Notes under the pieces: generated by a model | What the model was told of the DNA's origin: nothing | The model's database searches: none | What the model saw: the letters and a program-made list of their open reading frames with translations, nothing else | Assembly: GCA_000002445.1 (NCBI GenBank) | Contig: CP000069.1 | Location: forward strand, 1,376,001 to 1,440,000 | Length of the DNA: 64,000 nucleotides | Reading direction: 5' to 3' | Source of the DNA: Trypanosoma brucei | Lineage: Eukaryota | Shown: positions 18,258 to 60,500 of the stretch, in pieces | How positions within the stretch are numbered: the first letter of the stretch is position 1 | Layout of the letters: the number at the start of each line of letters is the position of its first letter | Made by a program: the position numbers and the translations under genes

Positions 18258-20783
18258 ATGTTTAACGTAAGAACGCCGATGTCGCGCGATGGGCGAGTTC
18301 ATGGAAGATGCTCGCCTGTGCTTGAGCTTTCATCTCCCCACGGGTATACTCCTTCGCTTCAGGAACGGGTATCACCAACGGTTGCTCCAACCCCGTGTTT
18401 CCGCAGCGAGGGGTGCCGATCCCCAGCAGTTCAGGGATTCAGACCACCTCCTCCGATTATTAGTGTGGGGCAACTAATTTATCCGACAGACCGCGACTCG
18501 CCCGCGACTCCTGGACTAAACACTGCCATTCCCTCCTCTCCATCACCATTGGCTGAAGCACGTTTTGGGATTGCGAGCGCAGGGCACATCCACCGGCCCT
18601 CCGGTATCGCTCCCGTGGCGCGTAAACTATCGACACCGTGTGCAAACCCTGTTGCCGAGGCAAAGCCAGTGGCGCGGCCCTCGTTTAGTAGTGATTGTGG
18701 TCGCATCGTGGAGCACCGCGACCCAACAACACATGAGGTTATCTCAAGTTATCGCTGTCGCATGCTGCTGGGCGCAGGTGGTTTCGCACAGGTGTTTGAA
18801 TTTGAAGAGGTGTCTACAGGTATCAGTTACGCTTGCAAGGTGGTGGAAAGGAAGAACCTAGCGCGTGGCGGGTCTTCGGCGAGATTTCGCATGGAGGTCG
18901 ATATACACAGCAGGATGAATCACCCTAATATACTTCGCTTCATAAAGTCATTTCAAGATGAATTTTACCATTATATAATACTTGAACAATGCAGCCAGGA
19001 GAGTTTAATGGATCTTTCAAAGAAGCGCGGTGCTTTCAACTGTCAGGAGATACAGTACATCATGCGACAGATTGTGTCTGCGGTAGAGTATATGCACAAC
19101 AGCATGATTATTCACAGGGACCTGAAGTTGGGGAACGTCTTGATTGACTTCGAAGGGAATATGAAGCTCGGGGACTTTGGCTTTGCTAGCGAGTTCACTT
19201 CGCCGTTTGAAAAGAAAACAACGGTGTGTGGAACGCCAAACTATTTGGCTCCGGAAGTTCTTGCATGCAAATCAACTGGTGTGGGATATGGGTTGGAAGC
19301 GGATATCTGGAGCTTAGGGGTGCTTCTTTATGCCCTTGCCGTTGGGAAGCCGCCGTTTGAAGCAAAAGATATCAGCGCCACGTATCACAGAATTCGAAAA
19401 GTGGATTACTCTTTTCCGGAAGGTATATCGATTCCGGAACCTTGCAAAGACCTTATTCAGTGGATGCTCCAGGGCGACCCGCAGAAGCGACCGGTTCCGG
19501 TGCAAATATTGGCGCACAGTTTTCTGTGTTTGCCTCTTCCGCCACGCACAGCGCCAAAGTCTCTTGTGCCTGTTGACGGACAGGTGGGGGGGTCCCGAAG
19601 TGAAAGGTGTGGATCTCGTCGGATCTCGCCTCCACCCGTGCAGGCACCTGCAACCCGCTGCAGTAGTGGGGTCGACGGGCGTGCGGACCGCTTCGCCTTG
19701 ACGCAAAACCGTATGGGTCCAACCGACTGCGAGGATCGGGCAGTGCTCCAAGAGGCTGCGGGAGTAGAGAGGTGTGGGGACGAAGCTGCGTCTGCAACTG
19801 CAGGTGGCACATTGACCACTGAGAAAAGGAACACAATTAAGCCTCCACCGCCTACTGCAATGCTTCAGAGTTGCGTGTCTTGTAGCAAGTACGGGTTTGG
19901 GTTTCTTACCCTTCAGAATGGCTGCCGGTATCCGGAGGCTTTCCTGAATGATAAAACCAAATTGGTTTTCGATCGCAACACGGATACTGTACTCTATTAC
20001 GACCGGTCGCGGCTTCAGGCAGTGACGAGAGAGTCCAGGAACCATAGTCCACTCCTCAGCGAAGATTTGGCCAAAAGGGGGTTCTGTGACGAATTGGTTG
20101 TTTTTCGCAACGCTTCCCGCACTCTGGTGCGTCGGAGTGAAAACAAGGACGACGGCGACCGCATGGAGGCTGCAGCAGCAAAGAAACTTGCCATAATAAA
20201 GTTTTTTCTACCATGTCTAGAGTGCGGCACAAGGGACAAGCGAATGACGGTCCTAACGTGTGCCCTTAGGGGCTGGTCCCCTTCTTGGGGGACGGAACTG
20301 TTTGCTCCTTGTCGAACGGGTGGCGAGCGACCTGACGTCGTTTACGTAAAGGACGCAGTTGCTGGGACCCTACATGAGCTAACTAATGAGCATCAGGATG
20401 TTGACATGACACTTCTCGCTGCTCGCATGTCCGACTACTCCTTTCACGTTTCCATGCGTTGTGATGCGGCCCAACAATCCCTACACCGTCCTATATATGA
20501 TGGCGGGGAAGCTAATGTCACGGAGCAACAATGGAGTTTTGATGTTTTGGTGTACTCCGGTTTCCATGCGCTTATGGCATTCGAGGATAGAGGTACACGC
20601 TTCGCTATGTCCTTTGAGGATCTACGAAATCACACAGAGGCAACGATGGGTGGGAAGGTGTACTTTGCCGCTGGGTCTACAGTTTGCAGCAAGCACATAA
20701 CGATACCAACACCAACACTACAGGCAATAGGTGTGCTACTCCGAAGAGTTCGCTGCTGTGCAAATATTGTGGAGTGCTTTTAA
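18258..20783 (+). CDS. PLK: Polo-like kinase
   Basis: The Ser/Thr kinase domain has GAGGFAQV...YACKVV, HRDLKLGN, DFGFA and GTPNYLAPE motifs. A C-terminal polo-box region (CVSCSKYGFGFLTLQNGCRYPEAFLNDKTKLVFDRNTDTVLYYDRS...) is present. A P/S-rich N-terminal extension of about 165 aa precedes the kinase domain, and the true start (18258 or 18279) is uncertain. Confidence 0.85.
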   Translation: MFNVRTPMSRDGRVHGRCSPVLELSSPHGYTPSLQERVSPTVAPTPCFRSEGCRSPAVQGFRPPPPIISVGQLIYPTDRDSPATPGLNTAIPSSPSPLAEARFGIASAGHIHRPSGIAPVARKLSTPCANPVAEAKPVARPSFSSDCGRIVEHRDPTTHEVISSYRCRMLLGAGGFAQVFEFEEVSTGISYACKVVERKNLARGGSSARFRMEVDIHSRMNHPNILRFIKSFQDEFYHYIILEQCSQESLMDLSKKRGAFNCQEIQYIMRQIVSAVEYMHNSMIIHRDLKLGNVLIDFEGNMKLGDFGFASEFTSPFEKKTTVCGTPNYLAPEVLACKSTGVGYGLEADIWSLGVLLYALAVGKPPFEAKDISATYHRIRKVDYSFPEGISIPEPCKDLIQWMLQGDPQKRPVPVQILAHSFLCLPLPPRTAPKSLVPVDGQVGGSRSERCGSRRISPPPVQAPATRCSSGVDGRADRFALTQNRMGPTDCEDRAVLQEAAGVERCGDEAASATAGGTLTTEKRNTIKPPPPTAMLQSCVSCSKYGFGFLTLQNGCRYPEAFLNDKTKLVFDRNTDTVLYYDRSRLQAVTRESRNHSPLLSEDLAKRGFCDELVVFRNASRTLVRRSENKDDGDRMEAAAAKKLAIIKFFLPCLECGTRDKRMTVLTCALRGWSPSWGTELFAPCRTGGERPDVVYVKDAVAGTLHELTNEHQDVDMTLLAARMSDYSFHVSMRCDAAQQSLHRPIYDGGEANVTEQQWSFDVLVYSGFHALMAFEDRGTRFAMSFEDLRNHTEATMGGKVYFAAGSTVCSKHITIPTPTLQAIGVLLRRVRCCANIVECF

Positions 20784-45548: not shown

Positions 45549-47003
45549 ATGAATCAACAGGTTCCTATTGAAGGAAGGGGTGACATTGAGGGAAGGAGAC
45601 GAGAGCGTGAGGAGGCTGCGCGTAACGATGCGGAACCTCCAGCAGTGCAGCAACGAGTGGAGAATAACAAACAACCACAATGGACAATTTTGAGCAGCGT
45701 TGAAGCAGTTTTGCTGAATGGTCTGCCGCATCCTGGAAATATGAGTGTAAATGATTTTTTGAGGTTTAATTTACTCGAAGATATCGATTTGGATCAGCGT
45801 CTCCTGAGAGCATCAATGTTTGCCTTTGTACAACGATGTGAAGAGTATATTAATGACGTTAATACACTCAATCGAATATTCGCGGCAGTAGCGTATAAAG
45901 TGTACAAACGTTTTGTCAGCATCTATGGTTTCTATGAGGATGAGGGAATATTGAATCTCAGGCGCTGGCAACAAGCAAATGAGGAAGTAAAGGCCAGGTT
46001 ACACGTGAATATTCGTGGACTGAGAAATGGAGATCAAACTTGGATTATTGTCACTAACATGTTGAATGATGCACTCAAAGAAGCATTGGGAGAAGCTGCC
46101 CAAACAGCTGGTGGTGCTGTCGAACTCTCAGGTTTGTATGATTCCATTTATAATGCGAAATGGAGTTACGTGATGTCGGGTTATGATGCAGGGCCATTTG
46201 GAATGTATGTATTCAATGGAAGACCACAGCGCATATGGACCGAAGCGGAGGTGGATATAACTCCTGATCCTGCGAATGTTGATGCAGAGATTGAGGAGAG
46301 ACCTTATGGTTTGGAGATTTTCGTTCTCACGTCTGAGGAAGGTTGGCCATACAACAGGTTTGAAATGGATTACACTACGGGGCGCAAAGCAGCATTTCAG
46401 CATGTATACATCCGTCGTGAAATTATGCGCGTGTGGTATATAATTCAACGAGGATTGCAAACATGGTGGGTGGAAAAGACGGCTCACAGACCACCGATAC
46501 ATATTGTTATTGGTACAGCTGGTATTGGTAAATCATGTGGTGTTGGATCATTTTTGCTTCATTCCCTGCTTCACTTCCATGAAGGAATGCTTGATGTTGT
46601 TGCGTATTTCACAGACACGATCGCCTTCCTCATATACAACAGAAAGGGTGATGAAAGAGGGAGGGTTGAGCGGTACGAAGGTTCGAGAGCTGCGGTCAAC
46701 GCCATGAATAAAATGAAATTTGAAAACGGAGGTCACATCATTATGGACACAAGGTACGCAACGCAGCAGCTGTATACTCATCTTCCCTCTTATACTTGGG
46801 GTGTAACTTTCCTCACTTTTCCGAATAGTGCCCGTTTTGATGACTGGACTACAAATAGGGGAGGCCGCCAAATTATTATAAACTGTGATGATGTGCGTGA
46901 CATGAAGGCATTTGTGGCATGGAAAAAGCTGTCAATACATGCAAGGAAAAAGGTATCCAACAGAAGAAGACACGAATTGAGGAAGGAAATGGAAGATGAA
47001 TGA
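45549..47003 (+). pseudogene. RHS: Retrotransposon hot spot (RHS) protein gene, 3'-truncated copy. The 484 aa ORF loses homology to the longer copy after ...DDVRDMKAFVAWKKLS (about nt 46934).
   Basis: The N-terminus MNQQVPIEGRGD.EGRRREREEAARNDAEPPAVQQRVENNKQPQWTILSSVEAVLLNGLPHPGN and the P-loop IVIGTAGIGKSCG are characteristic of T. brucei RHS proteins. Alignment with the second copy (50713..) ends where a full-length RHS would continue for more than 300 aa. Confidence 0.7.
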
Positions 47004-50000
47004 AAAATAGTGGAGGGACGTATTAATTCAATTGGGCCTCTGCATCCTTATATATCTGGTTTAAGATGTTATGAGTGGCGTCTGAAAAGAGTGCATGATG
47101 CGTTGGAAACTATGAAGAAATCGGGTGAATATTCCTATAATAATATTATTGAGCATACGGCTGCCAGAGAGAACAATGAAGTTATGAACAAGTTGGAGAA
47201 GATTGTAAGAGTAAAGGCAAATGTTGGAGGAATCGAATCATACAAATGTCAAGCTCTATCACCGATGATCCGACATATGATGATGAGCTAATTGTGCTCT
47301 TGTGTGTTAGTGAAATGCGACTTTGTAACATATGATGGATTTGATACCAAAAACTGTATTTATACTTTACTAATGGTTTGTGCATTGTATACTTTTCCTC
47401 TTTCTTCGAGTGCTTGATGCAGTCACATAATTTTGTTGAATTAGTTACCACACGATGGGAATGTGTGTTTAACAATTTAATTATTATTTTAGTGGCATGA
47501 GTCAATAAATGTTTCAGTTTATCCATTGCAGATGATTGTCTCTGATATCACAGGATTCTATTACTCAAAATAAATACATTGTACTCTACAACATCTTGGA
47601 CTCCAGTTACTTTATTTTGATGGATTTCTTTTGTTTCTTTTATGATGGGAACTGCAGGAATATTGAGGGGATTAAGGAAGTGCGCAGCGGTATGTTAAAA
47701 AATAATAAAATAAAAAGAGCACAACACTGATAACAGCTACATCGCAACAAAACGAATAAGTTTTTTGAGTGAGCATCGGACAATGCCAAATGACATTGTA
47801 GAATATTATACAAACATATCTGGTTCCGTTACATTAATTTGAAAGAACACATTAAGATGTGACAGTTCTCGTTTGTGAAGGAAAACATTGATAACATTAA
47901 ATTGTGAGTAACATTTTGTTATTTTTACATTCCTCACATTACAGTTAGTTAAGCATAATTATGTTATATCTCCTTGCTTTTTATTTTTTAACTTAGAATT
48001 TTACTTTTATTATTTATTTCTTTCTTGAGGGTTGTGAAGTTAACTATGTTTGACAGCAGCACATAACTCACAGGGGTACCCTTATGGTTTCATGCGAAGT
48101 TTTTCTTTTTTTCATGTTTATTTAAAATAAACTTTTGTTTTTTGACTTCTACATGTAGCCGACTAACACTGGCAGAGTCATAGGAAGTTTGAATTCAATT
48201 TTTTCTTCCAATGAGCAAAGCTATTCATCTGTTGGCAAATGGTTATATATAGCAGTAGAATATATTACGCAGTGCTTGTTGTATTTTAATTTATTTTTAT
48301 CATTTATTTTATTGCATATCATTATTTTACAGTTGCTATAATGAAATCATTGTTATTGTGTCGTTTCAGGATATTAGATCACTTATCATTTAACGTAATT
48401 TCAAATTATGATTATATTGAAACAAGTGCATGTTAGTGAAGAATATGCCTCTCTTGATAATTCATGTCTTTTTCTCTTTTAATTTTTAATTTTCAATTTA
48501 GTGCTATAGTTTTAATTAAATGCGTATATTTAACAATGTGGTATTGTTCCATATGGAATGTATCGCCATGGGTTACCATTCACACATTAGTTACTATATT
48601 TATGGTTAAAATGTTTATGGCTGAATGCTGCATTACATTGCTATCAAAATATTATGAATTGGAATAAAATGGAAAAGAAAGCTTGTATGTAAGTGAAATT
48701 ATATCAAGTGTTGTATTTCTGCTACTCGTCAACTTGATACATTTTGCATTTACCCCTCCCACCCCAAAAAAGAAACTAGGAATGCAAGTGTATAAATGTG
48801 TTTGATGTATCCAAATGCAACCAATTGGAAGGTGCGAGTTTTCTGTTTCTTTTTTTTCTGTTTTGTATTCTTTGAACTGTGACACTTTTTTTCAAGACTC
48901 CGGTGTTACGCTGCTGAGTGATCAAAGAAAATAGAAGCAATATCTTTGGAGGAAGTTATTAGTAATTAATTAATTAGTTTGACTCTGAGAGAAAATAAAA
49001 GGGAAAACAACCACTGCTTCTTGAGGAACACAATTCTGTTGTATAGCTTCTGATGTTGTGATCATATATAACACATTTATGGTTATTATATATTTGTATA
49101 TTCCACAAGGTATATCATAGTGTTGAATAGAAAACAAGGAAGGACTTTTGAGGGGGTTTTGTATGTTCTGCTGAATAAAATGAATGGGAATGAAAATATT
49201 AGTAGCTTAACATAACATAGAAGGAGTTTAGAGATATTATGATATGTAATGCTTAAAGTGTCTCACTTACACTTTTTTTTTTTTTGGAAATAGTTACAGT
49301 AACAAAAAGAAATTTACAGTATTTATAAGGAATGGAAATAGGCAGCTGAAACATTAGCGGGAAGAGAAGGGAAGGGAAAAGAAAAAAAGTAAATTATTAT
49401 TTCTCTCATGGATATTTACACTAATTTATATAGGGAGAAACAAGCGATTAGCATACGCAAAGTAAAATGAAATGTGTAAAACATTTAGTGATATATAAAG
49501 CAGAGAACACATACAAAGACACGCACAAGCACATCCGGCACTTCAGAATATATCATATATTTTCTTATATTTGATATATTTCCTTACATATTCCATATAT
49601 TCCCTATGTTTCTGGTTCCTTATATATTCCATATATTCCATATTTTTCAGATAGAGAGAAAATATTGTAAAGCATTTGTCCATGTGGCATACATTTTCAA
49701 TACTTCTTTTTCACCATTATTCGACTCAGCACACTCCTCAAAAGAGGCCTAATATTGGATTATTATTCCCACAAATATATTTGTTTCCTTCCGTGAGCCT
49801 TTCGTTCCTTTTGAGTTTCACCAAGGCACAAAAGCAGATGCATGGTAAGGTGCTCCAATACCAAAACAAAAACAAATACCTTTCATTCCTTCATATATAT
49901 TTCTTAGATTCATGGCTCCATGGTTGCAAAAAAGAAAAAAAAAGGATCACTTAAATAAAGAATAAAGAAAGTGAGCAGCACTTGTTCGTCAGGTGAGATC

Positions 50001-50712: not shown

Positions 50713-51712
50713 ATGAATCAACAGGTCCCTATTGAAGGAAGGGGTGACAATGAGGGAAGGAGACGAGAGCGTGAGGAGGCTGCGCGTAACGATGCGGAAC
50801 CTCCAGCAGTGCAGCAACGAGTGGAGAATAACAAACAACCACAATGGACAATTTTGAGCAGCGTTGAAGCAGTTTTGCTGAATGGTCTGCCGCATCCTGG
50901 AAATGTGAAGTTGAATGATTTTTTGAGTAGTAATGTCTATAGAAGAAACCATGTGAATGAAGTAAATAATGTATCATTGTTTTTGTTCTGTAGAATGCCG
51001 GAGCGATACATTGAAAGAAAGGATATACTGGACGAGGCATTTGATCTACCTGATTTTGGGACGTACAAACGTTTTGTCAGCGTCCATCGCTTCCTTGAGG
51101 ATGAGGGAATATTGAATCTCAGGCGCTGGCAACAAGCAAATGAGGAAGCAAAGGCCAGGTTACACGTGAATATTCGTGGACTGAGAAATGGAGATCAAAC
51201 TTGGATTATTGTCACTAACATGTTGAATGATGCACTCAAAGAAGCATTGGGAGAAGCTGCCCAAACAGCTGGTGGTGCTGTCGAACTCTCAGGTTTGTAT
51301 GATTCCATTTATAATGCGAAATGGAGTTGCGTGATGTCGGGTTATGATGCAGGGCCATTTGGAATGTATGTATTCAATGGAAGACCACAGCGCATATGGA
51401 CCGGAGCGGAGGTGGATATAACTCCTGATCCTGCGAATGTTGATGCAGAGATTGAGGAGAGACCTTATGGTTTGGAGATTTTCGTTCTCACTTCGGAGAA
51501 GGGTTGGCCATACAACAGGTTTAAAATGGATTACACTATGTGGCGAAAAGCAGTATTTCAGCATGTATACATCCGTCGTGAAATCATGCGCGTGTGGTAT
51601 ATAATCCAAAAAGATCTGAAAGCATGGTGGGTGGAAAAGACAGCTCACAGACCACCGATACATATTGTTATTGGTACACCTGGTATTGGTAAATCATGTG
51701 GTGTTGGATCAT

Positions 51713-51729
51713 TTTTGCTTCATTCCCTG
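51713..51729 (+). repeat. Target-site duplication copy 1 (ttttgcttcattccctg)
   Basis: The same 17-mer recurs at 56980..56996 (between ingi and RIME) and at 57494..57510 (after RIME). It is single-copy at the homologous position of the uninterrupted RHS (about 46554..46570). Confidence 0.8.
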
Positions 51730-54700
51730 GCGATGCCGGCCACCTCAACGTGGTGCCAGGGTCCAGTACCCCGTATCATCGGGGGAAGCCAAGAGCCAGC
51801 AGCGTTCCTTTCATGGGGAACACTGCTGTGCTCCGGCTACGGCATCATACAGCACAGGGATCAGCAGCGTCTTGCTGGGACACCGTCTTTCATTTGTCGG
51901 TCCCTGGGCACGTGCCAGCGTGCCATCAGCAGTATCATCCGCACTAAGATGCTGCTGTCCGGTGATGTGGAAGAGAATCCCGGCCCGTCGTTGCGCGGGA
52001 TGCAGTGGAACTGCGCCGGGCTATCTCAAGGAAAGAGATTAGCACTCCACAAAACCCTTGTTGATGAGCGGATCGCCTTTTGTCTGTTGAGCGAGACAAG
52101 GATGACGCCTGGAGAGGCGGCTTGCTTTAGCGTTGCTGGCTACCAACATCACGGAATAGCTCGTAACTGCAAAGGAGGTGGTGTATCAATACTAGTGAGG
52201 GAGGACCTACCAGTCGAGACCGGTATGGCCGTTATTGGTCGCATTGAACAAGTGCATGCAACAATTCACCTTGCACGTGGAACGGCGCTGACTGTCACGT
52301 CGGCATACATCCCACCAAAACACACCTTCACGGCAACTGACCTAGATACGCTTCTGACGACTGACGGTGCCCAGCTCATCGGTGCAGACGCTAACGCACA
52401 CGCGTTGGCATGGGATCGCGCGAGCCCACCAAATACCAAGGGTGAAACCCTCACACAGTGGTGCATTGACAACCAGTTTCTGGTCTGCAACACTGGTGAG
52501 TGCACCAGGTACGCGCGCCACCACGGGGAGTCCACCCCTGATGTGACACTGTCAAGGAATTGCACAGTGTACACGTGGACATCGCTGTATTCTCCCGATA
52601 GCGATCACCATCACATATTTTTCGACGTTATCGTTGGAGACGACACAGATGCACTGAGTTGCCCGCGGCTTCAAAAGCCCATGTACGCATGGCTAAAAGC
52701 TAACTGGAGGAATTTCCGTCTCAAGGTTGACGAGCTCTGCAGGAAAATTAGTAGAGAGAAGAACGTCAACACCCTGGAACAGAAATTGAGCTCCGCCATC
52801 CGCATTGCGACGAAGGTCTCCGTCCCCCGTGGCTGCAGAGCAACGCCACCACATTGGACACCTGAGCTCGCGAAACTCGATGAAGAGATCGCTGGATGCG
52901 GACCCTCCCACCGAAGGGAAAAGTTGGTAGCCACGCGTAAGCAGATCCTGGACCGTACCACAAAGAAGAGATGGAGCACGCTATGCTCCAGACTTGCGGT
53001 GTCAGACCGCTGCAGTCGGCACATTGTCAAGAAGGTATATGCGCCACGACCACTAACCACACCGGCTGTACTTGTAGATAACGCGGCCATCACGGACTAC
53101 CGTCAAGCTGAGAGGTTCAGTAAACTGTACTCGTCCCGCGCAAGAAGGCACCCCGACTCACACCCACCGGCACCAATAAAGACGATAGCGAGTGAGTTCA
53201 GTCCCATCACGATGGCTGAACTACGGAGATCGATCAAACTGCTACCGAGTGGATCCGCAGCCGGACCTGATTGCTTATACAACGAGGCACTGCAACATCT
53301 CGGCAGAACAGCGCTGAATGTTGTTCTGAGGCTATTCAATGAGAGCCTACGAACGGGAGTCGTGCCGCCTGCATGGAAGACTGGTGTTATCATCCCCATC
53401 CTGAAGGCCGGAAAAAAGGCGGAGGACCTCGATTCTTACAGGCCTGTGACGCTCACGAGCTGTCTCTGCAAAGTCATGGAGCGCATAATTGCCGCGAGAC
53501 TTAGAGACACTGTTGAGTCCCAGCTGACGCCGCAGCAATCAGGCTTTCGCCCCGGATGCTCAACGCTCGAACAACTCCTGCACGTCCGCGCTGCCCTCTG
53601 CCGTCCCACGCACCAATATCGTACGGGTGCTGTATTCGTTGACTACGAGAAGGCATTTGATACAGTAGACCACGACAAAATTGCGAGGGAAATGCACAGA
53701 ATGAAGGTATCACCCCACATTGTGAAGTGGTGCGTATCATTTCTGAGTAACCGAACTGGCAGAGTGAGATTCAAGGAGAAGCTTTCCAGAAGCAGAACAT
53801 TTGAGCGAGGAGTGCCACAAGGAACTGTCCTTGGCCCAATCATGTTCATTATTGTCATGAACTCGTTGAGCCAACGCCTTGCAGAGGTGCCGTTACTGCA
53901 GCACGGATTCTTTGCAGACGACCTAACGCTACTTGCGAGGCACACAGAGAGGGATGTCATCAACCACACACTACAATGCGGTCTAAACGTGGTGTTACAG
54001 TGGTCAAAAGAGTACTTCATGTCTGTCAACGTAGCGAAAACAAAGTGCACACTCTTCGGGTGTATAGAGCGCCACCCCCTTACATTACAACTGGACGGTG
54101 AAAGAATAGGAGCTGACAGGACACCGAAGCTTCTAGGAGTAACATTCCAGTGTCTGCAGGGGATGGCAACACATGCGGCCGAAACGAGACGCAAGATGGA
54201 CTTCCGACTACTGCAGATAGCAGCCATCTCAGCTTCTATATGGGGGCCAATACGACAAGTGCTGAGAGCTTTTTATCTAGCACTCGTACAGGCACACACC
54301 ATGTATGGCATTGAGGTATGGTACTGGGACGCTTCGGAACGAAGTCGCGACCTCCTTGCATCAGCACAACACAAAGCCAGTCGCATCATAGCCGGCATAC
54401 CGCATGGGACGCGCAAAGAGGACTCTCTGCTGGAAGCAAACCTCCTGCCACTCAAGACGACCACTCTTGTGCGCAGCATGAAATTCATGCTGATGTGTGA
54501 GTCACGAGGCGGATGTTTGCGGCGCAGTGCTGAAGAAGTATACCACAGCAAACACCCAGTCAGAGCCCTACATTCCCGTATCATGCGGTCCTACCCCCAC
54601 CTCCGCATTGAGCCACGCGAGCACCCACTAGAGACATCGACGCTCCGCCACAGCTGCCGACCGATATTTCACACGCAGATAAAGCCTGTGTGCGCTGATG

Positions 54701-55866
54701 ACCCTGACGATGTCAAAAGGGAGGCTTCCGAAAAGTGGATTGAACGACATTTTGCACGGAGGGGGAAGGAGCCACCGCGGCGAGAGCACTACGAATTGTG
54801 GACTGATGGATCCGTGTCCCTCGGTGAGAAGTCCGGAGCAGCTGCCCTGCTCTATAGAAACAACACGCTGATTTGTGCACCTAAGACAGGAGCAGGGGAA
54901 CTTTCATGCAGTTACAGAGCGGAATGCGTAGCATTAGAGATAGGACTGCAACGGCTGCTGAAATGGCTTCCGGCATACAGAAGCACACCGAGCAGGTTGT
55001 CCATCTTCTCTGACTCGCTGTCAATGTTAACAGCACTGCAGACAGGCCCCCTAGCCGTAACGGACCCAATTCTAAGACGACTATGGAGGCTTCTGCTTCA
55101 AGTTCAGAGAAGGAAGATACGTATCCGACTGCAATTTGTGTTTGGCAATTGTGGCGTGAAACGGAATGAGGTTTGCGATGACATGGCCAAAAAGGCCGCA
55201 GATTTACCACAGTTGCGAGACACATGGATCCCCGACATCATTGCTTATGCGAAGCGAGTGCTTAGGTCGGAAGAAGTCCATGAGAACACTCATAGGTTTG
55301 GTATCACGGGCAACCACTTTCCAACAAAACATAAGGAAGAACTGACGAGGGAAGAAGAAACGGCACTGGCACGCTTTCGGGTTGGGTCTTCAAGACACTA
55401 TGGATGGATGTTGCGAAAGATTAACCCGAGTGTGCCTCCACAGTGCCGATGGTGCAACCCGCAACATGCAGAGATAGGGCCAACAATACAAACAGCCCCA
55501 ACTGTTGCGACACGCACTCTTCAGAGAACCTCCGAACCGACCAAATGTACTGAATGTGATGCCACATACCAATGCCGCTCGAGTGCTGTAACGCATATGG
55601 TAAACAAACATGGCTTTGTGCGAGCTGATGCCCTTCGAAAGATAAAATACGGCGATGCAACACCTGCAGTGGATATCCCCCCGGAGCCCCCTCCAGTGGT
55701 GGCGATCGTTCCTCTACCATCGAGCACACGAGTTACGATGAGACCGCAGGTGCTTCATTGTACCATCTGTGCCTCCAAATTCGCAATGCCAGGCAGACTA
55801 CTACACCACCTTAGAACAATACATGGCATAGGCAGCGGCAGTTGCCGCGTGAAAAGGGGGCGATAA
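51730..55866 (+). CDS. ingi ORF, main part (1378 codons). It is in frame with the upstream RHS fragment and ends at TAA 55864..55866. The same frame continues 55879..56706 (C2H2 fingers), so the element has 1659 codons interrupted by a single stop.
   Basis: Track ORF 50713..55866 and ORF 55879..56706 lie in the same frame (offset 5166 = 0 mod 3). The endonuclease/RT/RNase H/Zn-finger domain order is that of ingi/L1Tc-type elements. Confidence 0.8.
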   Translation, partial: AMPATSTWCQGPVPRIIGGSQEPAAFLSWGTLLCSGYGIIQHRDQQRLAGTPSFICRSLGTCQRAISSIIRTKMLLSGDVEENPGPSLRGMQWNCAGLSQGKRLALHKTLVDERIAFCLLSETRMTPGEAACFSVAGYQHHGIARNCKGGGVSILVREDLPVETGMAVIGRIEQVHATIHLARGTALTVTSAYIPPKHTFTATDLDTLLTTDGAQLIGADANAHALAWDRASPPNTKGETLTQWCIDNQFLVCNTGECTRYARHHGESTPDVTLSRNCTVYTWTSLYSPDSDHHHIFFDVIVGDDTDALSCPRLQKPMYAWLKANWRNFRLKVDELCRKISREKNVNTLEQKLSSAIRIATKVSVPRGCRATPPHWTPELAKLDEEIAGCGPSHRREKLVATRKQILDRTTKKRWSTLCSRLAVSDRCSRHIVKKVYAPRPLTTPAVLVDNAAITDYRQAERFSKLYSSRARRHPDSHPPAPIKTIASEFSPITMAELRRSIKLLPSGSAAGPDCLYNEALQHLGRTALNVVLRLFNESLRTGVVPPAWKTGVIIPILKAGKKAEDLDSYRPVTLTSCLCKVMERIIAARLRDTVESQLTPQQSGFRPGCSTLEQLLHVRAALCRPTHQYRTGAVFVDYEKAFDTVDHDKIAREMHRMKVSPHIVKWCVSFLSNRTGRVRFKEKLSRSRTFERGVPQGTVLGPIMFIIVMNSLSQRLAEVPLLQHGFFADDLTLLARHTERDVINHTLQCGLNVVLQWSKEYFMSVNVAKTKCTLFGCIERHPLTLQLDGERIGADRTPKLLGVTFQCLQGMATHAAETRRKMDFRLLQIAAISASIWGPIRQVLRAFYLALVQAHTMYGIEVWYWDASERSRDLLASAQHKASRIIAGIPHGTRKEDSLLEANLLPLKTTTLVRSMKFMLMCESRGGCLRRSAEEVYHSKHPVRALHSRIMRSYPHLRIEPREHPLETSTLRHSCRPIFHTQIKPVCADDPDDVKREASEKWIERHFARRGKEPPRREHYELWTDGSVSLGEKSGAAALLYRNNTLICAPKTGAGELSCSYRAECVALEIGLQRLLKWLPAYRSTPSRLSIFSDSLSMLTALQTGPLAVTDPILRRLWRLLLQVQRRKIRIRLQFVFGNCGVKRNEVCDDMAKKAADLPQLRDTWIPDIIAYAKRVLRSEEVHENTHRFGITGNHFPTKHKEELTREEETALARFRVGSSRHYGWMLRKINPSVPPQCRWCNPQHAEIGPTIQTAPTVATRTLQRTSEPTKCTECDATYQCRSSAVTHMVNKHGFVRADALRKIKYGDATPAVDIPPEPPPVVAIVPLPSSTRVTMRPQVLHCTICASKFAMPGRLLHHLRTIHGIGSGSCRVKRGR
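51964..51987 (+). other. 2A-like ribosome-skipping motif DVEENPGP near the N-terminus of the ingi ORF
   Basis: gat gtg gaa gag aat ccc ggc ccg encodes D-V-E-E-N-P-G-P, the canonical D(V/I)ExNPGP 2A consensus. The RIME breakpoint (57240) falls inside this motif (ggtgatgtgga|cctcc). Confidence 0.8.
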
Positions 55867-56979
55867 AACGAGGACTCAGTGCAAGGAGATGGTAAAGCCC
55901 CAGCAGCGCCAGCCTCTCAGGATACACGGAAGCTGCCGTTTCAATGTGACCTGTGCGAGGCGAGCTTCGGTACACGTTCTTCCCTGACACTACACAAGAA
56001 ATTCAAACATAAAAGCATAGTGACGGAGGACGGTACCGTGGTGTTGGTGCAATTCCCTCGTAAGCGTGCCCGTGAGGGAAACGTTGACGTCCCGGGGAAG
56101 GGCGAGGTGCAGTGCGGTGTGTGCCAAAAAGTGCTCAGTTGCAGGGACTCCCTCATCCGACACTGTAAGGCTTTCCACAAAGGTGAGGGAGTCGAGCTTA
56201 AATGCAGCAAAAGCACAAAATTGTGTGCCACTGATTCCCCGCATACAAACACATCCATGTTGGTGTGCCCGACATGCGGAAGGCAGTGTGCTAGCAAAAC
56301 TGGCCTCACCCTACATCAAAAGAAGATGCACGGTATGAAGGTAGAGCGCGCTGTTACCAGCCAACGCGGCGACTGCGAAGAAACGTCGCTGCACTTGATG
56401 AGCTGTCCCGGTTTGAAGGAGTTACGTGTCAGATTTGCGGTAGAAGGTGAGTGTGTGCAGGATGTATGCTTCTCCAAAAGGCTGGCGCAGTTTCTCATTG
56501 CGGTTGAACGGAGCCGGCCGCAGGTGAAGTCCTCACCTAAGGTAACAGTCATACAACCCACTCTCCCTTCTGCAACTTCCCCCCTTATTGCCGAGTGTGG
56601 AGCAAGCAGGAAAAGCACCGGACGCAGGAATAGTCCAGACACCCTCAGAGACAGAGGAGGTATGCAGTCAACAAGCAACAGAAACAGAAAGAGGGGGAGA
56701 GAATAATAAACGAATAACAAAAATCAAAACAAAAGGATTGCTAATTGACATCTTTGGGAGAGTCCGGGGTGAGGGGGGCTTCTCGCCCCATCTGCTGTAT
56801 TCCGTTCAACTGCGGAGCTACAACAAAAATTATAGAGGGTGTGTTAGGATGAATAAAAAAGGGAGACTCTGCCACAGTCGCCAGACCGATAGCATCTCAG
56901 GGCTCTACGGTGATGGCTGATGGCCGCGCCAGTTGGGAGAAACTCTCACGAAGGCACGAAGAAAATTCAAAAAAAAAAA

Positions 56980-56996
56980 TTTTGCTTCATTCCCTG
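56980..56996 (+). repeat. Target-site duplication copy 2, lying between the ingi poly(A) and the RIME 5' end
   Basis: The 17-mer ttttgcttcattccctg is identical to the 17-mers flanking the composite insertion. Confidence 0.8.
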
Positions 56997-57493
56997 GCGA
57001 TGCCGACCACCTCAACGTGGTGCCAGGGTCCAGTACCCCGTATCATCGGGGGAAGCCAAGAGCCAGCAGCGTTCCTTTCATGGGGAACACTGCTGTGCTC
57101 CGGCTACGGCATCATACAGCACAGGGATCAGCAGCGTCTTGCTGGGACACCGTTTTTCATTTGTCGGTCCCTGGGCACGTGCCAGCGTGCCATCAGCAGT
57201 ATCATCCGCACTAAGATGCTGCTGTCCGGTGATGTGGACCTCCAAAAAAGGATTGCCAATTGGCATCTTTTGGAGAGTCCAGGGTGGGAGGCTTCTCGCC
57301 CCATCTGCTGTATTCCGTTCATATGCGGAAATACAACAAAAATTATAGAGGGTGTGTTAGGATGAATGAAAAAGGGAGACTCTGCCACAGTCGCCAGACC
57401 GATAGCATCTCAGGGCTCTACGGTGATGGCTGATGGCCGCGCCAGTGGGGGGAAACTCTCACGAAGGCACGAAGAAAATTCTAAAAAAAAAAA
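56997..57493 (+). mobile_element. RIME (ribosomal mobile element, 497 bp), consisting of ingi 5' 251 bp plus ingi 3' 246 bp, with terminal poly(A) at 57483..57493
   Basis: 56997..57247 matches ingi 51730..51980 and 57248..57493 matches ingi 56734..56979. It ends in A11 followed by the TSD. Confidence 0.88.
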
Positions 57494-57510
57494 TTTTGCT
57501 TCATTCCCTG
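57494..57510 (+). repeat. Target-site duplication copy 3
   Basis: ttttgcttcattccctg is followed directly by RHS sequence cttcacttccatgaaggaatgcttgatg, colinear with 46571.. in the intact copy. Confidence 0.8.
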
Positions 57511-60500
57511 CTTCACTTCCATGAAGGAATGCTTGATGTTGTTGCGTATTTCACGGGCGGGATAGCCTACTTAATATATAACGATAAACCCGGTGAAGAG
57601 GGGAGAGTTGAGCAGTATAAAGGCGTGACAGCTTCTGTGAGGGGAATAAATGCAGTAAAGTACGAAAAGACAGGTCACATCATTATGGACACAAGGTACG
57701 CAACGCAGCAGCTGTATACTCATCTTCCCTCTTATACTTGGGGTGTAACTTTCCTCACTTTTCCGAATAGTGCCCGTTTTGATGACTGGACTACAAATAG
57801 GGGAGGCCGCCAAATTATTATAAACTGTGATGATGTGCGTGACATGAAGGCATTTGTGGTATGGAAAAAGCTGTCTGTAGCATCATGCTATGCGATACTT
57901 GATAAAGAGTCACAGGTGAGGATTGTAGAAGAAATCAAAAATGAGTGGAAAACAATAGAGGGCCGTGTTGATGTAGTTGGGCCAGTGCCTCGTTGCGTTT
58001 ACGACAGCATGGAGTACACAAAACGTGTGTCTCAGGCAAAAAAGACGATAACGGCCATCAATGATGATAACAAAAGACACTACGAGGACATAATGATGAA
58101 AATTGCCGGTTGGCAAAATGATAAGGTAACGCACAGGTTAGTGAGAATCGTTCGTGTGCGAGATGCCGGAGAGAGCATCGATGGATACCGCTGCAGGCCA
58201 CTTTCGGCTTGCATTGGGAATGCTATATTTTTAAAACTGCTTTCCATTATTGTGCAGAAAATGGCTATCCGTCAAGTTATGATTTCAGACGAGAGTGCTG
58301 CGGCCAACGTTTTCAAATCGGGGGCGTTGTTTGCATTTCTTTTTCCTCGAGTTTTTAAAGTTATCAGAGACAACATAAAATACCTGCGGCGGCCGGGTGG
58401 ACCGGAAGAGAAACGATGCATACTGAAAGACATGACTCCTCAGCAGTTGAGACTCACTGGGCAGAAGTTTTTACCAGATGCCAGACAGCAGCCAATGGAG
58501 AAGTGTGAATACATGGTTCTCTACCGCCCTGCCACAGTCAATGAACCCGTGGTGGATGGCTTTTTTTTCGTTGAGGGGCGGCTCAGGAAAACTCCTAAGG
58601 GCAGGGCGGCACTGACCACTCCAAATATAGCTGTGCTTTTACAAGTAACCAAGTTGGCATGTCACCCCACCACTGCGTCAAAGGTGCAGAAGTTCCGAGA
58701 AAACATGGCAAGATATTTTTCTGATTGGGGTGCGTTTTCCAGCAACATGGTTTGGGAGATGATATACATCAATGGAGCTAGTGGTGGTGTGATTACAAGA
58801 TGGCAGCTTTGTGATGGCGACGACCCCGCCGAAGCGGCTGATATGTGGAGAAACATGACTCAATACCAAGTAACGTTAAGAGAAGAAATGCAGGGGCAGC
58901 TAATGCGAGCATATGCAGAAGAAGGTTGGTATCGGGATGCTCCACTTCTGGCCATGGAGCCTGCGCCGCAGCCACGCAACGAGCAAGCGGGAGCGCAAGG
59001 AGGGTGAGGCGATTTCACAGCATTGAGTGAGGTAGAAGCTGAGTAAAAATATCCGGCCTGGTATGTTATGGTGGACGCGAGCAGTCAACAGTGTACGGTG
59101 CTAATGTGGGGCGAGGCGGCGTTTTTTCCATTCAAAGTCAAATTGAGTTATCGTATCATTGGGAGGCCAGCAGTCCTAACTGCCAAAACAGGGTAAATGG
59201 CTTTGTCTTAATGCTTGACATGACAGGATGCGCTGCAAGGGAGTAATATTCAGCAAATAGCGGCTATAGTAATCATCTTATTCTTTTCAACAAGCAGTCA
59301 AATGCGGCGGTTAGTGCAGGAAAGGGACGTGATAATTCGCTTGAGTGTCGGGAGGGATGGGAGGGAAGTGGAAATGAAGACGACTAAGGAATAGTAAAAG
59401 TAGTATTTTATCGGCTAACGCGTAACTGGAGTTAAGCCACATCGTAATCTTAAGGGGCACAGAGAAAGACAGAAATAATGTTATCGACGGACGTAAGAAA
59501 ACATTGTAACGTTTTGTTTTCATTTTTGCTATTACCAACTCAAGAATTGGATTATACTAGACTAACTCTTCACATCTTCCTTTCATTTATACAATCTAAA
59601 TTTTCCATCCGTGTAGAGATAGGAATCTATAGTCCAATGATAAAAGGAACAAAAATGTAATAGTACTTTTCGCTTCTTCGCCATCCGTGGTGGAGAGAGA
59701 GTATTGGAAACATGCCTCAACTCTAACTCTGCTGAATCCTATTTCCAGTAGGTGTAATGGGAGAGGGATTGTGACGGAGTGAAATATGCAAACATTAGAA
59801 GCAGTTACTGGATGTGCTGTTTCATATACGAGCTGTTATAATTATATTATACATGTTAGTTATGGTTGCAGTTATGGAGCAGCTCTTGATGGTGTTCTTC
59901 GCAGACGCGCAGCTGGTGACGTGATTGTGTCCATTTTCCTCTCTCACTCTCTTTCTTTCTTCAATTATTTGTCGGTGTGCAAACATACTATGATATGTTG
60001 TCTTCTCTTTACTTATAATCACTTCTGTTATCCTGGTTGAGGGTTGGCAGTTGGGCCTCTCTCCACACGTGGCAACCTTAAACTTATGTTGCTGGTTGCC
60101 TCCAGCAGCAAATCCCATATCATCATCAACATTGATACGAAAACCATGCAGTGATCGTATGTAACGGCAGCAGTGGAGTGACCATGACCTCGTCTATTGA
60201 CCCACATGTGCGAACTTATTTCTCTATTCAAGTCAATGGGGAATGGTGCATGCCCCTCCTTGCGATACCCCAGAGGGTGAAAGTTGTTGCTGTTTGGTCA
60301 ATAATTTTGCTATTCTTAGTCAGGTAACACTAGAGATGAATAATTTGTTTTTTTACACGCGGATGCGTACAATTTTGGGGTGGAGTAAATGGATTGTATC
60401 AGCCCCAACGAATTTCTTAAATACTACGCAGTTTTTCTCAATGAAGTGCTGATGTGCGTTTACCGGTACATGATCCGTTTGTGTCGGGATGTATTACGAA

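What the first reader, a model, noticed from the sequence alone, without database searches (positions are those of the whole stretch)
51713..57510. Back-to-back ingi and RIME insertions at one nucleotide position of an RHS gene, with the 17 bp target-site duplication present three times
The 17-mer ttttgcttcattccctg sits before ingi, between the ingi poly(A) and RIME, and after the RIME poly(A). The uninterrupted RHS copy carries it once. This is what two successive retrotranspositions into exactly the same phosphodiester bond would leave, that is, the second event re-cut the regenerated TSD. It is a molecular picture of a retrotransposon hot spot. It implies strong site selection by the ingi endonuclease, or recombination between elements that share TSDs. 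Preferential ingi/RIME insertion at one position in RHS genes is established knowledge. The precise tandem ingi-TSD-RIME-TSD arrangement here was read directly from the sequence.
Basis: partly seen in the sequence, partly recalled or inferred. Interest (0 to 1): 0.55.

Follow-up and report, generated by a model that had tools for sequence, protein, structure and literature searches.

The report
Stacked ingi and RIME in RHS
A Trypanosoma brucei RHS gene carries a full-length ingi and a RIME retroposon side by side at the family's known insertion hot spot; this is a textbook case of a published arrangement, but the duplicated host sequence is the standard 12 bp, not 17 bp.

Summary
TTTTGCTTCATTCCCTG occurs exactly four times: once at the empty site of a neighbouring RHS copy (46552), and before ingi, between ingi and RIME, and after RIME (51713, 56980, 57494).

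The "17-bp TSD" is really a 12-bp TSD (TTTTGCTTCATT) plus CCCTG. CCCTG is nucleotides +1 to +5 of ingi-clade retroposons. Published L1Tco, NARTco, Tvingi and SIDER copies at unrelated sites all start with it directly after their TSDs. It also forms the covarying P1 helix of the 5' ribozyme hallmark. The RHS target happens to carry CCCTG after the 12-mer as well.

The published Tbingi/TbRIME target signature (A-N7-T-N3-GT-N-GG-N-T-N3^N-T-N-T-NN-T-N5) matches 10/10 at only two places in the window: the empty site and the RHS/ingi junction. In both, the predicted nick falls exactly at the left edge of the 12-mer. The middle and right 12-mer copies have lost the upstream signature.

The best reading is two independent signature-guided insertions, with the second going into the 5'-most copy. 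That makes RIME older and ingi younger, which is an inference.

Tandem ingi/RIME pairs separated only by a 12-bp TSD, and RHS pseudogenes with one or more elements, are already in the literature. The finding is ordinary and already known.

The parts
50713..51712 (+). 5' half of the interrupted RHS gene (ATG to the first-strand nick site). P-loop GTPGIGKS is aa 321-328, and the nick lies in codon F334, five codons after it.
   Evidence: ORF list, translation, Pfam RHS_N and RHSP on the rejoined protein.
51691..51712 (+). 22-nt upstream part of the published ingi4 (Tbingi/TbRIME) target signature, AAATCATGTGGTGTTGGATCAT; 7/7 specified positions match.
   Evidence: Signature text in PMC3820030; scan and scoring.
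51713..51724 (+). TSD copy 1 (J1), TTTTGCTTCATT; 3/3 signature positions match.
51725..56979 (+). Full-length ingi, 5255 bp including an 11-A tail (56969-56979). It begins CCCTGGCGATGCC. The ORF runs from ATG 51733 to 56703 (4971 nt, the canonical length).
   Evidence: Self-BLAST; Pfam APE endonuclease, RT, RNase H and C2H2 zinc fingers; canonical sizes in PMC3447711; 5' end defined.
51725..51803 (+). 79-nt 5' hallmark (Pr77 / HDV-like ribozyme region) of ingi. P1 helix is nt 1-7 CCCTGGC paired with nt 31-37 GCCAGGG.
55864..55866 (+). Single in-frame TAA interrupting the ingi ORF, between the RNase H and zinc-finger regions.
56980..56991 (+). TSD copy 2 (J2), TTTTGCTTCATT, preceded by the ingi poly(A). 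Upstream signature 1/7.
56992..57493 (+). RIME, 502 bp including an 11-A tail (57483-57493). Its 5' 247 nt are 99.2% identical to the ingi 5' end, and its 3' 248 nt are 94% identical to the ingi 3' end.
57494..57505 (+). TSD copy 3 (J3), TTTTGCTTCATT, preceded by the RIME poly(A). Upstream signature 2/7.
57506..59007 (+). 3' half of the RHS gene, beginning with the host's own CCCTG (57506-57510). It rejoins the 5' half in frame to give an 837-aa ORF without internal stops.
46530..46568 (+). Unoccupied target in the neighbouring RHS pseudogene (45549-47315): 22-nt signature, 12-mer and CCCTG. It serves as the empty-site reference.

Best explanation
An RHS gene was hit twice at its hot spot by the ingi retrotransposition machinery. 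The ingi-encoded APE-type endonuclease recognises the signature A-N7-T-N3-GT-N-GG-N-T-N3 and makes the first-strand nick at 51712|51713. Reverse transcription then copies the polyadenylated RNA. A second nick 12 nt downstream leads to duplication of TTTTGCTTCATT. After one insertion, the 5' junction still carries the complete 22-nt signature and the 12-mer. It also keeps the next 5 nt unchanged, because the element itself begins CCCTG just as the host does after the 12-mer. That makes 39 nt identical to the virgin target, so the junction is a fully competent target again. The copy behind the poly(A) has lost the signature. A second element therefore lands upstream of the first. This gives signature-TSD-ingi-TSD-RIME-TSD-RHS 3' half, with RIME the older and ingi the younger insert. 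Shown directly: the anatomy, the perfect and unique signature match, the 12+5 partition, and the independence of the two elements. Inferred: endonuclease recognition of the signature (a published inference, not tested biochemically here), the strand order of the nicks, and the order of the two events.
For: Three identical 12-mers (17-mers) flank the elements. The ingi4 signature printed in PMC3820030 matches 10/10 only at 46530 and 51691 among about 128,000 positions, against 0.17 expected, and in the register that puts the nick at the left edge of the 12-mer; all shifted registers score 7 or less. J1 keeps 33+12+5 nt identical to the empty site, whereas J2 and J3 keep none upstream. Upstream signature scores are 7/7 at J1, 1/7 at J2 and 2/7 at J3. 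The 12-bp TSD is a constant of Tbingi/TbRIME and relatives. CCCTG is the element's 5' end: L1Tco, NARTco, Tvingi, TbSIDER1, LmSIDER2 and TvSIDER1 at unrelated sites begin CCCT(G/T) or CCTTG right after their TSDs, and the NARTco host flank continues GCAACC. P1 pairing of nt 1-7 is kept 7/7 in 9 of 11 elements, with both-sided changes at positions 3, 6 and 7. In L1Tc, +1 is C1 and reverse transcriptase stops at G37, which matches the numbering here. The RIME 3' end differs from the adjacent ingi 3' end by 6% (15/250), so the pair is not a local duplication or deletion product. Removing both elements and two 12-mers restores an intact 837-aa RHS ORF, consistent with clean TPRT events. The literature states that such tandems separated only by a TSD are frequent and arise by independent insertions at the same position, and that RHS pseudogenes carry one or more retroelements.
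Against: No second T. brucei locus or strain could be examined, so the order of events and the independence of the two insertions rest on one locus plus published generalisations. The published signature may have been derived partly from RHS-borne copies, which would make the perfect match partly circular. PMC3820030 does report the same signature upstream of TbSIDER2, but whether those copies lie outside RHS genes was not checked. Because host and element share CCCTG, the second nick could lie anywhere from 12 to 17 nt downstream; at this locus alone the 12-bp value is the parsimonious reading, not a proven one. All three repeats are identical and both tails are 11 A, so nothing in the sequence dates the events.
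Confidence: 0.75

Rival explanations
1. Literal 17-bp TSD: the second nick was 17 nt downstream in both events, and both elements are 5'-truncated by exactly 5 nt, starting at GCGATGCC.
For: The empty site really does contain all 17 nt, so a 17-nt stagger would give the same product. Microhomology-primed second-strand synthesis on CCCTG would also leave this sequence.
Against: It needs two extra coincidences, each repeated twice: a non-canonical stagger and an exact 5-nt truncation. The TSD length is reported as constant at 12 bp for this clade. CCCTG is the conserved +1 to +5 and forms the covarying P1 helix. With CCCTG included, the element lengths are the canonical 5255 bp and 502 bp.
Confidence: 0.08
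2. Recombination rather than re-insertion: an RHS::ingi pseudogene and an RHS::RIME pseudogene were joined by unequal exchange or microhomology-mediated end joining within the shared 17 nt (12-mer plus CCCTG).
For: RHS copies clearly exchange sequence at this site. The two copies in the window are 95.5% identical 5' of the site but 87.1% identical 3' of it (Fisher p = 2.6e-6). PMC7563717 mentions crossing-over near the insertion site. Many RHS copies are said to be occupied, which would provide the substrates.
Against: In the required misaligned register only 17 nt of homology exist, flanked by non-homology on both sides. A signature-guided second insertion needs no special event, and it is the published explanation for such tandems.
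Confidence: 0.12
3. Same double insertion but in the opposite order: ingi first, then RIME into the 3' TSD copy behind the ingi poly(A).
For: The 12-mer and 49 nt of downstream host sequence are intact at that copy. The TSD-internal signature positions match 3/3. In other systems, such as human Alu next to L1 tails, poly(A)-adjacent re-insertion is known (own knowledge).
Against: The upstream 22-nt signature, which holds 7 of the 10 specified positions, is replaced by poly(A) (1-2/7 match). The literature places the recognition motif upstream of the TSD.
Confidence: 0.2
4. The pair moved or was copied as a unit: either read-through retrotransposition of an ingi-TSD-RIME dimer from another RHS locus, or segmental duplication of an already stacked pseudogene. 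An assembly artefact joining repeats belongs in the same category.
For: RHS targets are conserved, so a donor-derived internal 12-mer would look identical. RHS genes are multicopy.
Against: The 5' ribozyme/promoter hallmark of the RIME is reported to ensure the individuality of copies transcribed from tandems. An internal 11-A tract would have to be read through. Segmental duplication only moves the question of origin elsewhere. Junction J2 (poly(A)-12-mer-CCCTGGCG) cannot be produced by collapsing solo insertions.
Confidence: 0.04

Closest known systems
Tbingi/TbRIME insertions at the RHS hot spot of Trypanosoma brucei (Bringaud et al. 2002, Eukaryot Cell 1:137; as summarised in PMC7563717)
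   Same: The gene family is the same (Pfam RHSP/RHS_N). The position is the same, five codons after the P-loop. The RHS halves flank 'one or more retroelements'. The C-terminal part diverges downstream of the site.
   Different: Nothing of substance. The primary paper was not readable here, so I could not check whether this very locus, or the 5-nt host/element identity, is described there.
Tandem autonomous/non-autonomous ingi-clade pairs separated only by a 12-bp TSD (Tvingi/TvSIDER1, Tcoingi/TcoSIDER1, L1Tc/NARTc, Tbingi/TbRIME; PMC3820030)
   Same: Architecture is element-TSD-element-TSD with identical TSDs, attributed to independent insertions at the same position through recognition of the same target.
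   Different: Here the target lies inside a protein-coding gene family, and it additionally shares 5 nt with the element's 5' end. The repeat therefore looks 17 nt long.
Site-specific non-LTR retrotransposons such as R1/R2 in rDNA and SLACS/CZAR in spliced-leader genes
   Same: Repeated use of one nucleotide position in a multicopy host gene, and a 5' HDV-like ribozyme that trims co-transcripts (R2, L1Tc).
   Different: ingi has only 'relative' site specificity: a degenerate 10-position signature and many non-RHS sites. It uses an APE-type rather than a REL-type endonuclease.

Membership tests
Tbingi (ingi4 subclade, autonomous non-LTR retroposon) | About 5.25 kb, with a single long ORF of 4,971 nt / 1,657 aa | tested here: met
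   Element is 5255 bp. ATG 51733 to 56703 is 4971 nt, with one premature TAA at 55864-55866. Canonical values are from PMC3447711.
Tbingi (ingi4 subclade, autonomous non-LTR retroposon) | [quoted passage not shown] | tested here: met
   Pfam Exo_endo_phos, RVT_1, RNase_H and zf-C2H2. DVEENPGP lies about 80 aa into the ORF. The 2A in Ingi is described in PMC3708506.
Tbingi (ingi4 subclade, autonomous non-LTR retroposon) | 76-79-nt 5' hallmark (Pr77 / HDV-like ribozyme) starting at C+1, with P1 pairing to about G37 | tested here: met
   The alignment with published L1Tco, NARTco and Tvingi starts exactly at CCCTG. P1 pairs 7/7, with covariation across the clade. Rfam has no matching model. The MFE fold alone is not significant.
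Tbingi (ingi4 subclade, autonomous non-LTR retroposon) | 3' poly(A) and a 12-bp TSD | tested here: met
   11-A tail, with TTTTGCTTCATT on both sides. The 12-17 ambiguity caused by the shared CCCTG is noted in the report.
Tbingi (ingi4 subclade, autonomous non-LTR retroposon) | Preceded by the ingi4 target signature AxxxxxxxTxxxGTxGGxTxxx^xTxTxxTxxxxx | tested here: met
   10/10 at 51691-51724; unique in the window apart from the paralogous empty site.
Tbingi (ingi4 subclade, autonomous non-LTR retroposon) | Endonuclease actually nicks at this signature; element is retrotransposition-competent | not testable with these tools
   This needs biochemical nicking or retrotransposition assays. This copy has a nonsense codon, so it is probably not autonomous.
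TbRIME (non-autonomous partner) | About 500 bp made of the first and last ~250 bp of ingi, with no coding capacity and a poly(A) tail | tested here: met
   502 bp. The 5' 247 nt are 99.2% and the 3' 248 nt are 94% identical to the ingi ends. 11-A tail.
TbRIME (non-autonomous partner) | Flanked by a 12-bp TSD | tested here: met
   TTTTGCTTCATT at 56980 and 57494.
RHS (retrotransposon hot spot) gene family | RHS N-terminal domain plus RHSP P-loop domain | tested here: met
   PF20445 scores 1.6e-30 and PF07999 scores 9.7e-65 on the rejoined 837-aa protein.
RHS (retrotransposon hot spot) gene family | Retroelement insertion site just downstream of the ATP/GTP-binding motif (five codons) | tested here: met
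   GTPGIGKS is aa 321-328 and the nick lies in codon 334. The statement is in PMC7563717.
RHS (retrotransposon hot spot) gene family | Assignment to subfamily RHS1-6 by the C-terminal region | not tested
   No reference RHS sequences were available in the accessible databases.

The most novel reading that the evidence does not exclude
The 5-nt identity between the RHS target (CCCTG after the 12-mer) and the first 5 nt of ingi/RIME may not be a coincidence but part of why this site is a hot spot. It would allow microhomology-guided, full-length 5' joining. It would also make each insertion regenerate a perfect 39-nt target, so that stacks grow upstream. In addition, the insertion is in frame, so the RHS start codon reads through into the ingi ORF, where the 2A motif could release the enzyme. 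This could let ingi borrow a trans-spliced host mRNA for translation.
Probability: 0.15. Interest if true: 0.4.

Novelty: already known. Interest (0 to 1): 0.15.

Why it matters
It matters little beyond annotation. The locus is a clean, undecayed example of a documented phenomenon: relative site specificity of ingi/RIME, stacking at the RHS hot spot, and a 12-bp TSD. The useful outcomes are a corrected boundary (12-bp TSD; elements start at CCCTG) and a demonstration that the published target signature picks out this site uniquely in 64 kb. There is also a simple testable rule: in stacks, the 5'-most element should be the youngest. The host/element CCCTG identity is a small lead on 5'-junction formation that a genome-wide RHS survey could settle quickly.

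Tried and rejected
1. I sought independent T. brucei ingi/RIME insertions through the protein database. The best ingi hit had only 37% identity, so T. brucei is effectively absent, and I dropped look-up of encoding contigs.

2. Exact scans for the ingi/RIME 5' signature in metagenome, prokaryote-genome and viral contigs gave 0 hits.

3. An Rfam scan of 51600-57700 at E<=1 found no family. This is uninformative, because no L1Tc-type ribozyme model matched.

4. Single-sequence MFE folding of the 79-nt hallmark gave z-scores of -0.6 to -1.4, not significant and as expected for a pseudoknotted ribozyme. I replaced it with the comparative P1 test.

5. MAFFT mis-registered the SIDER 5' ends, so I tabulated P1 anchored at the published +1 instead of using count of structure pairs.

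6. The primary papers are not held: the Bringaud 2002 RHS paper (PMC118050, and PMC118051, a mistaken id I tried first) and an id recalled from memory for the Bringaud 2009 ingi-subfamilies paper (PMC2756862). I had no PMC id for Bringaud 2004 and did not look it up. I relied on later open-access papers that restate their results.

7. A full-text search for the target sequence, and one for CCCTGGCG together with Pr77, found nothing relevant.

8. tblastn and sensitive blastn searches for more RHS copies, degenerate ingi-related elements or extra 5' hallmarks in the window found none beyond the two RHS copies and two elements.

9. I considered the RIME as a local deletion derivative of the adjacent ingi and rejected it, because the 3' ends diverge by 6%.
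Full report
**Observation.** An exact search finds TTTTGCTTCATTCCCTG four times on the + strand, at 46552, 51713, 56980 and 57494. No further match appears at up to two mismatches, against 0.01 expected from shuffles. The repeat finder independently returns the three copies in the interrupted gene, with spacings of 5267 and 514 nt. It also shows that the first two copies extend into 259 nt of shared sequence, the element 5' ends. The base before the repeat is T in the host (51712) and A after each poly(A), so the left boundary is unambiguous. The neighbouring RHS copy has the sequence once, uninterrupted...GGATCAT TTTTGCTTCATT CCCTG CTTCACTTCC....

**What the pieces are.**
- Self-BLAST shows one 5.25-kb element and one 0.5-kb element. 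The short element's first ~245 nt are 99.2% identical to the long element's 5' end, and its last ~250 nt are 94% identical to the long element's 3' end.
[quoted passage not shown] It has the DVEENPGP 2A-like motif about 80 aa into the ORF, which is known for Ingi (PMC3708506).
- From ATG 51733 to 56703 the ORF is 4,971 nt, exactly the canonical ingi ORF length given in PMC3447711. A single TAA at 55864-55866 interrupts it.
- Both elements end in 11 A.
- The flanking halves belong to an RHS gene. Joining 50713-51729 to 57511-59007 gives an 837-aa ORF with no internal stop, which hits Pfam RHS_N and RHSP.
- The nick site lies in codon 334, five codons after the P-loop GTPGIGKS. This agrees with the description of the hot spot in PMC7563717.

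**The repeat is 12 + 5, not 17.** PMC3820030 states that the TSD of Tbingi/TbRIME and their relatives is a constant 12 bp. TTTTGCTTCATT is 12 nt, and the remaining CCCTG is followed by GCGATGCC.

The supplement of PMC4035085 prints ingi-clade elements with their flanks:
- L1Tco: ACTTGTCTTTCA|CCCTGGCGCAGCC...
- NARTco: ...ACTTGACGCGAC|CCCTGGCG..., whose 3' flank reads CTTGACGCGAC then GCAACC, so the host there has no CCCTG.
- Tvingi: AAGTAGGTTTTC|CCCTGTTG...
- TbSIDER1, LmSIDER2 and TvSIDER1 likewise start CCCT(G/T) or CCTTG immediately after unrelated target sequence.

In an alignment with the window's ingi and RIME, homology begins exactly at CCCTG, and the preceding 12 nt are unrelated.

Nucleotides 1-7 (CCCTGGC) pair with 31-37 (GCCAGGG). 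This helix is kept 7/7 in 9 of 11 elements and 6/7 in the other two. Both-sided changes occur at positions 3, 6 and 7, for example CCCTGAT/ATCAGGG and CCTTGAT/ATCAAGG. In L1Tc the mapped +1 is C1, and reverse transcriptase stalls at G37/C38 at the triple-GC end of P1 (PMC3185411). The numbering is identical here if the element starts at the first C of CCCTG. With CCCTG included, the elements measure 5255 bp and 502 bp.

So at J1 and J2, CCCTG is element sequence. At J3 and at the empty site it is the host's own (codons TCC CTG). Because host and element coincide, a second nick anywhere from 12 to 17 nt downstream would give the same product. The 12-bp reading needs no extra assumption, whereas the 17-bp reading needs an unusual stagger and an exact 5-nt truncation, each occurring twice.

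**Site selection.** PMC3820030 prints the ingi4 (Tbingi/TbRIME) target signature 5'-AxxxxxxxTxxxGTxGGxTxxx^xTxTxxTxxxxx-3', with the arrow at the first-strand cleavage and 12 TSD positions after it. In the window it matches without mismatch at only two places, 46530 and 51691, against 0.17 expected. These are the empty site and J1.

| Copy of the 12-mer | Upstream signature | TSD positions |
|---|---|---|
| Empty site (46552) | 7/7 | 3/3 |
| J1 (51713) | 7/7 | 3/3 |
| J2 (56980) | 1/7 | 3/3 |
| J3 (57494) | 2/7 | 3/3 |

Over about 128,000 positions on both strands, the scores are 10/10 twice, 9/10 once and 8/10 seventy-two times. Shifting the register at J1 by 1 to 6 nt either way drops the score to 7 or less. 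The predicted nick therefore coincides with the left edge of the 12-mer, and the 12 TSD positions end just before CCCTG. At J2 and J3 the upstream signature has been replaced by element 3' end and poly(A). One caveat applies: the published consensus may owe part of its strength to RHS-borne copies. The same paper does report the signature upstream of TbSIDER2.

**Mechanism.** The simplest account is two independent target-primed reverse transcriptions at one site. After the first event, the 5' junction is identical to the virgin target over 33+12+5 nt, while the 3' junction has lost everything upstream. A signature-guided second event should therefore go into the 5'-most copy. That places the newcomer upstream, making RIME older and ingi younger. 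This order is an inference, since nothing in the sequence dates the events.

The RIME is not derived from its neighbour, because the 3' ends differ at 15 of 250 positions. The clean restoration of the RHS ORF on removing the elements fits precise TPRT.

The rivals are as follows:
- Recombination or MMEJ between RHS::ingi and RHS::RIME copies within the shared 17 nt. This is possible, since the two RHS copies in the window show a step in identity exactly at the site (95.5% upstream against 87.1% downstream, p = 2.6e-6). It is less parsimonious.
- The reverse order of insertion.
- En-bloc movement, segmental duplication or assembly artefact. These are unlikely.

[quoted passage not shown] From memory, unverified here, the abstract of Bringaud et al. 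2002 speaks of RHS copies containing 'a RIME and/or ingi' at exactly the same relative position. The arrangement and its explanation are therefore established. Every membership feature I could test for ingi, RIME and RHS was met.

**What could not be done.** No T. brucei sequence outside the window was reachable, and the primary papers were not held. I could not survey other RHS loci or strains, nor check whether the CCCTG coincidence has been noted before.

**Verdict.** This is a real, cleanly preserved but ordinary example of a published phenomenon. The TSD is 12 bp. The apparent 17-mer arises because the RHS target continues with the same five bases that begin the retroposon. Interest is low. 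The only mildly open point is whether that 5-nt identity, together with the in-frame RHS-ingi fusion and its 2A site, contributes to the hot spot.

Noticed in passing
window 50713-55866: The RHS start codon opens a 1,717-aa ORF that runs in frame from the RHS N-terminal half straight into the ingi ORF (...GSFLLHSL|AMPATST...). The 2A-like DVEENPGP lies at fusion aa 415-422. Translation started on an RHS mRNA could in principle release ingi protein by ribosome skipping.
   Followed up: partly
window 45549-47315: The 'uninterrupted' RHS copy is unoccupied at the hot spot but is itself a pseudogene. It has in-frame stops at codons 485 and 581, similarity to the other copy ends near aa 589, and many stops follow.
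   Followed up: yes
window 45902-46933 versus 51063-51712 and 57511-57875: Identity between the two RHS copies drops from 95.5% upstream of the insertion site to 87.1% downstream (79% in the first 100 nt), with the step at the site itself (Fisher p = 2.6e-6). This fits the known divergence or recombination of RHS C-terminal parts at the hot spot.
   Followed up: partly
window 55864-55866: The ingi has exactly the canonical 4,971-nt ORF apart from one TAA, which separates the endonuclease/RT/RNase H part from the C2H2 zinc-finger part. It is a very young or recently inactivated copy.
   Followed up: partly
window 20695-20728 (- strand): This is the only 9/10 match to the ingi4 target signature in the window. 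It lies antisense within the protein-kinase ORF (18258-20783) and is unoccupied. The sequence after its would-be 12-mer is GCTTG, not CCCTG.
   Followed up: no
window 56969-56979 and 57483-57493: Both elements carry poly(A) tails of exactly 11 A. The 12-mer that follows begins TTTT, so the primer end left by the first nick would be A-rich and not complementary to poly(A), unlike L1-type targets.
   Followed up: no
window 57225-57260: The internal deletion junction of the RIME falls inside the 2A motif region (GDVE|). About 7 nt (CCTCCAA, 57239-57245) are not alignable to this ingi copy.
   Followed up: no
window 1-38000: The left 38 kb is a same-strand array of housekeeping-type ORFs: an LRR protein, ribosomal L15e, an ATP-synthase subunit C family (PF00137) protein, a TTC39/Iml2-like TPR protein, a protein kinase, a CPSF-A/DDB1-like beta-propeller protein, and a 2,946-aa ORF with no Pfam hit. 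The two RHS copies therefore sit at the edge of a core polycistron rather than deep inside an RHS array.
   Followed up: partly
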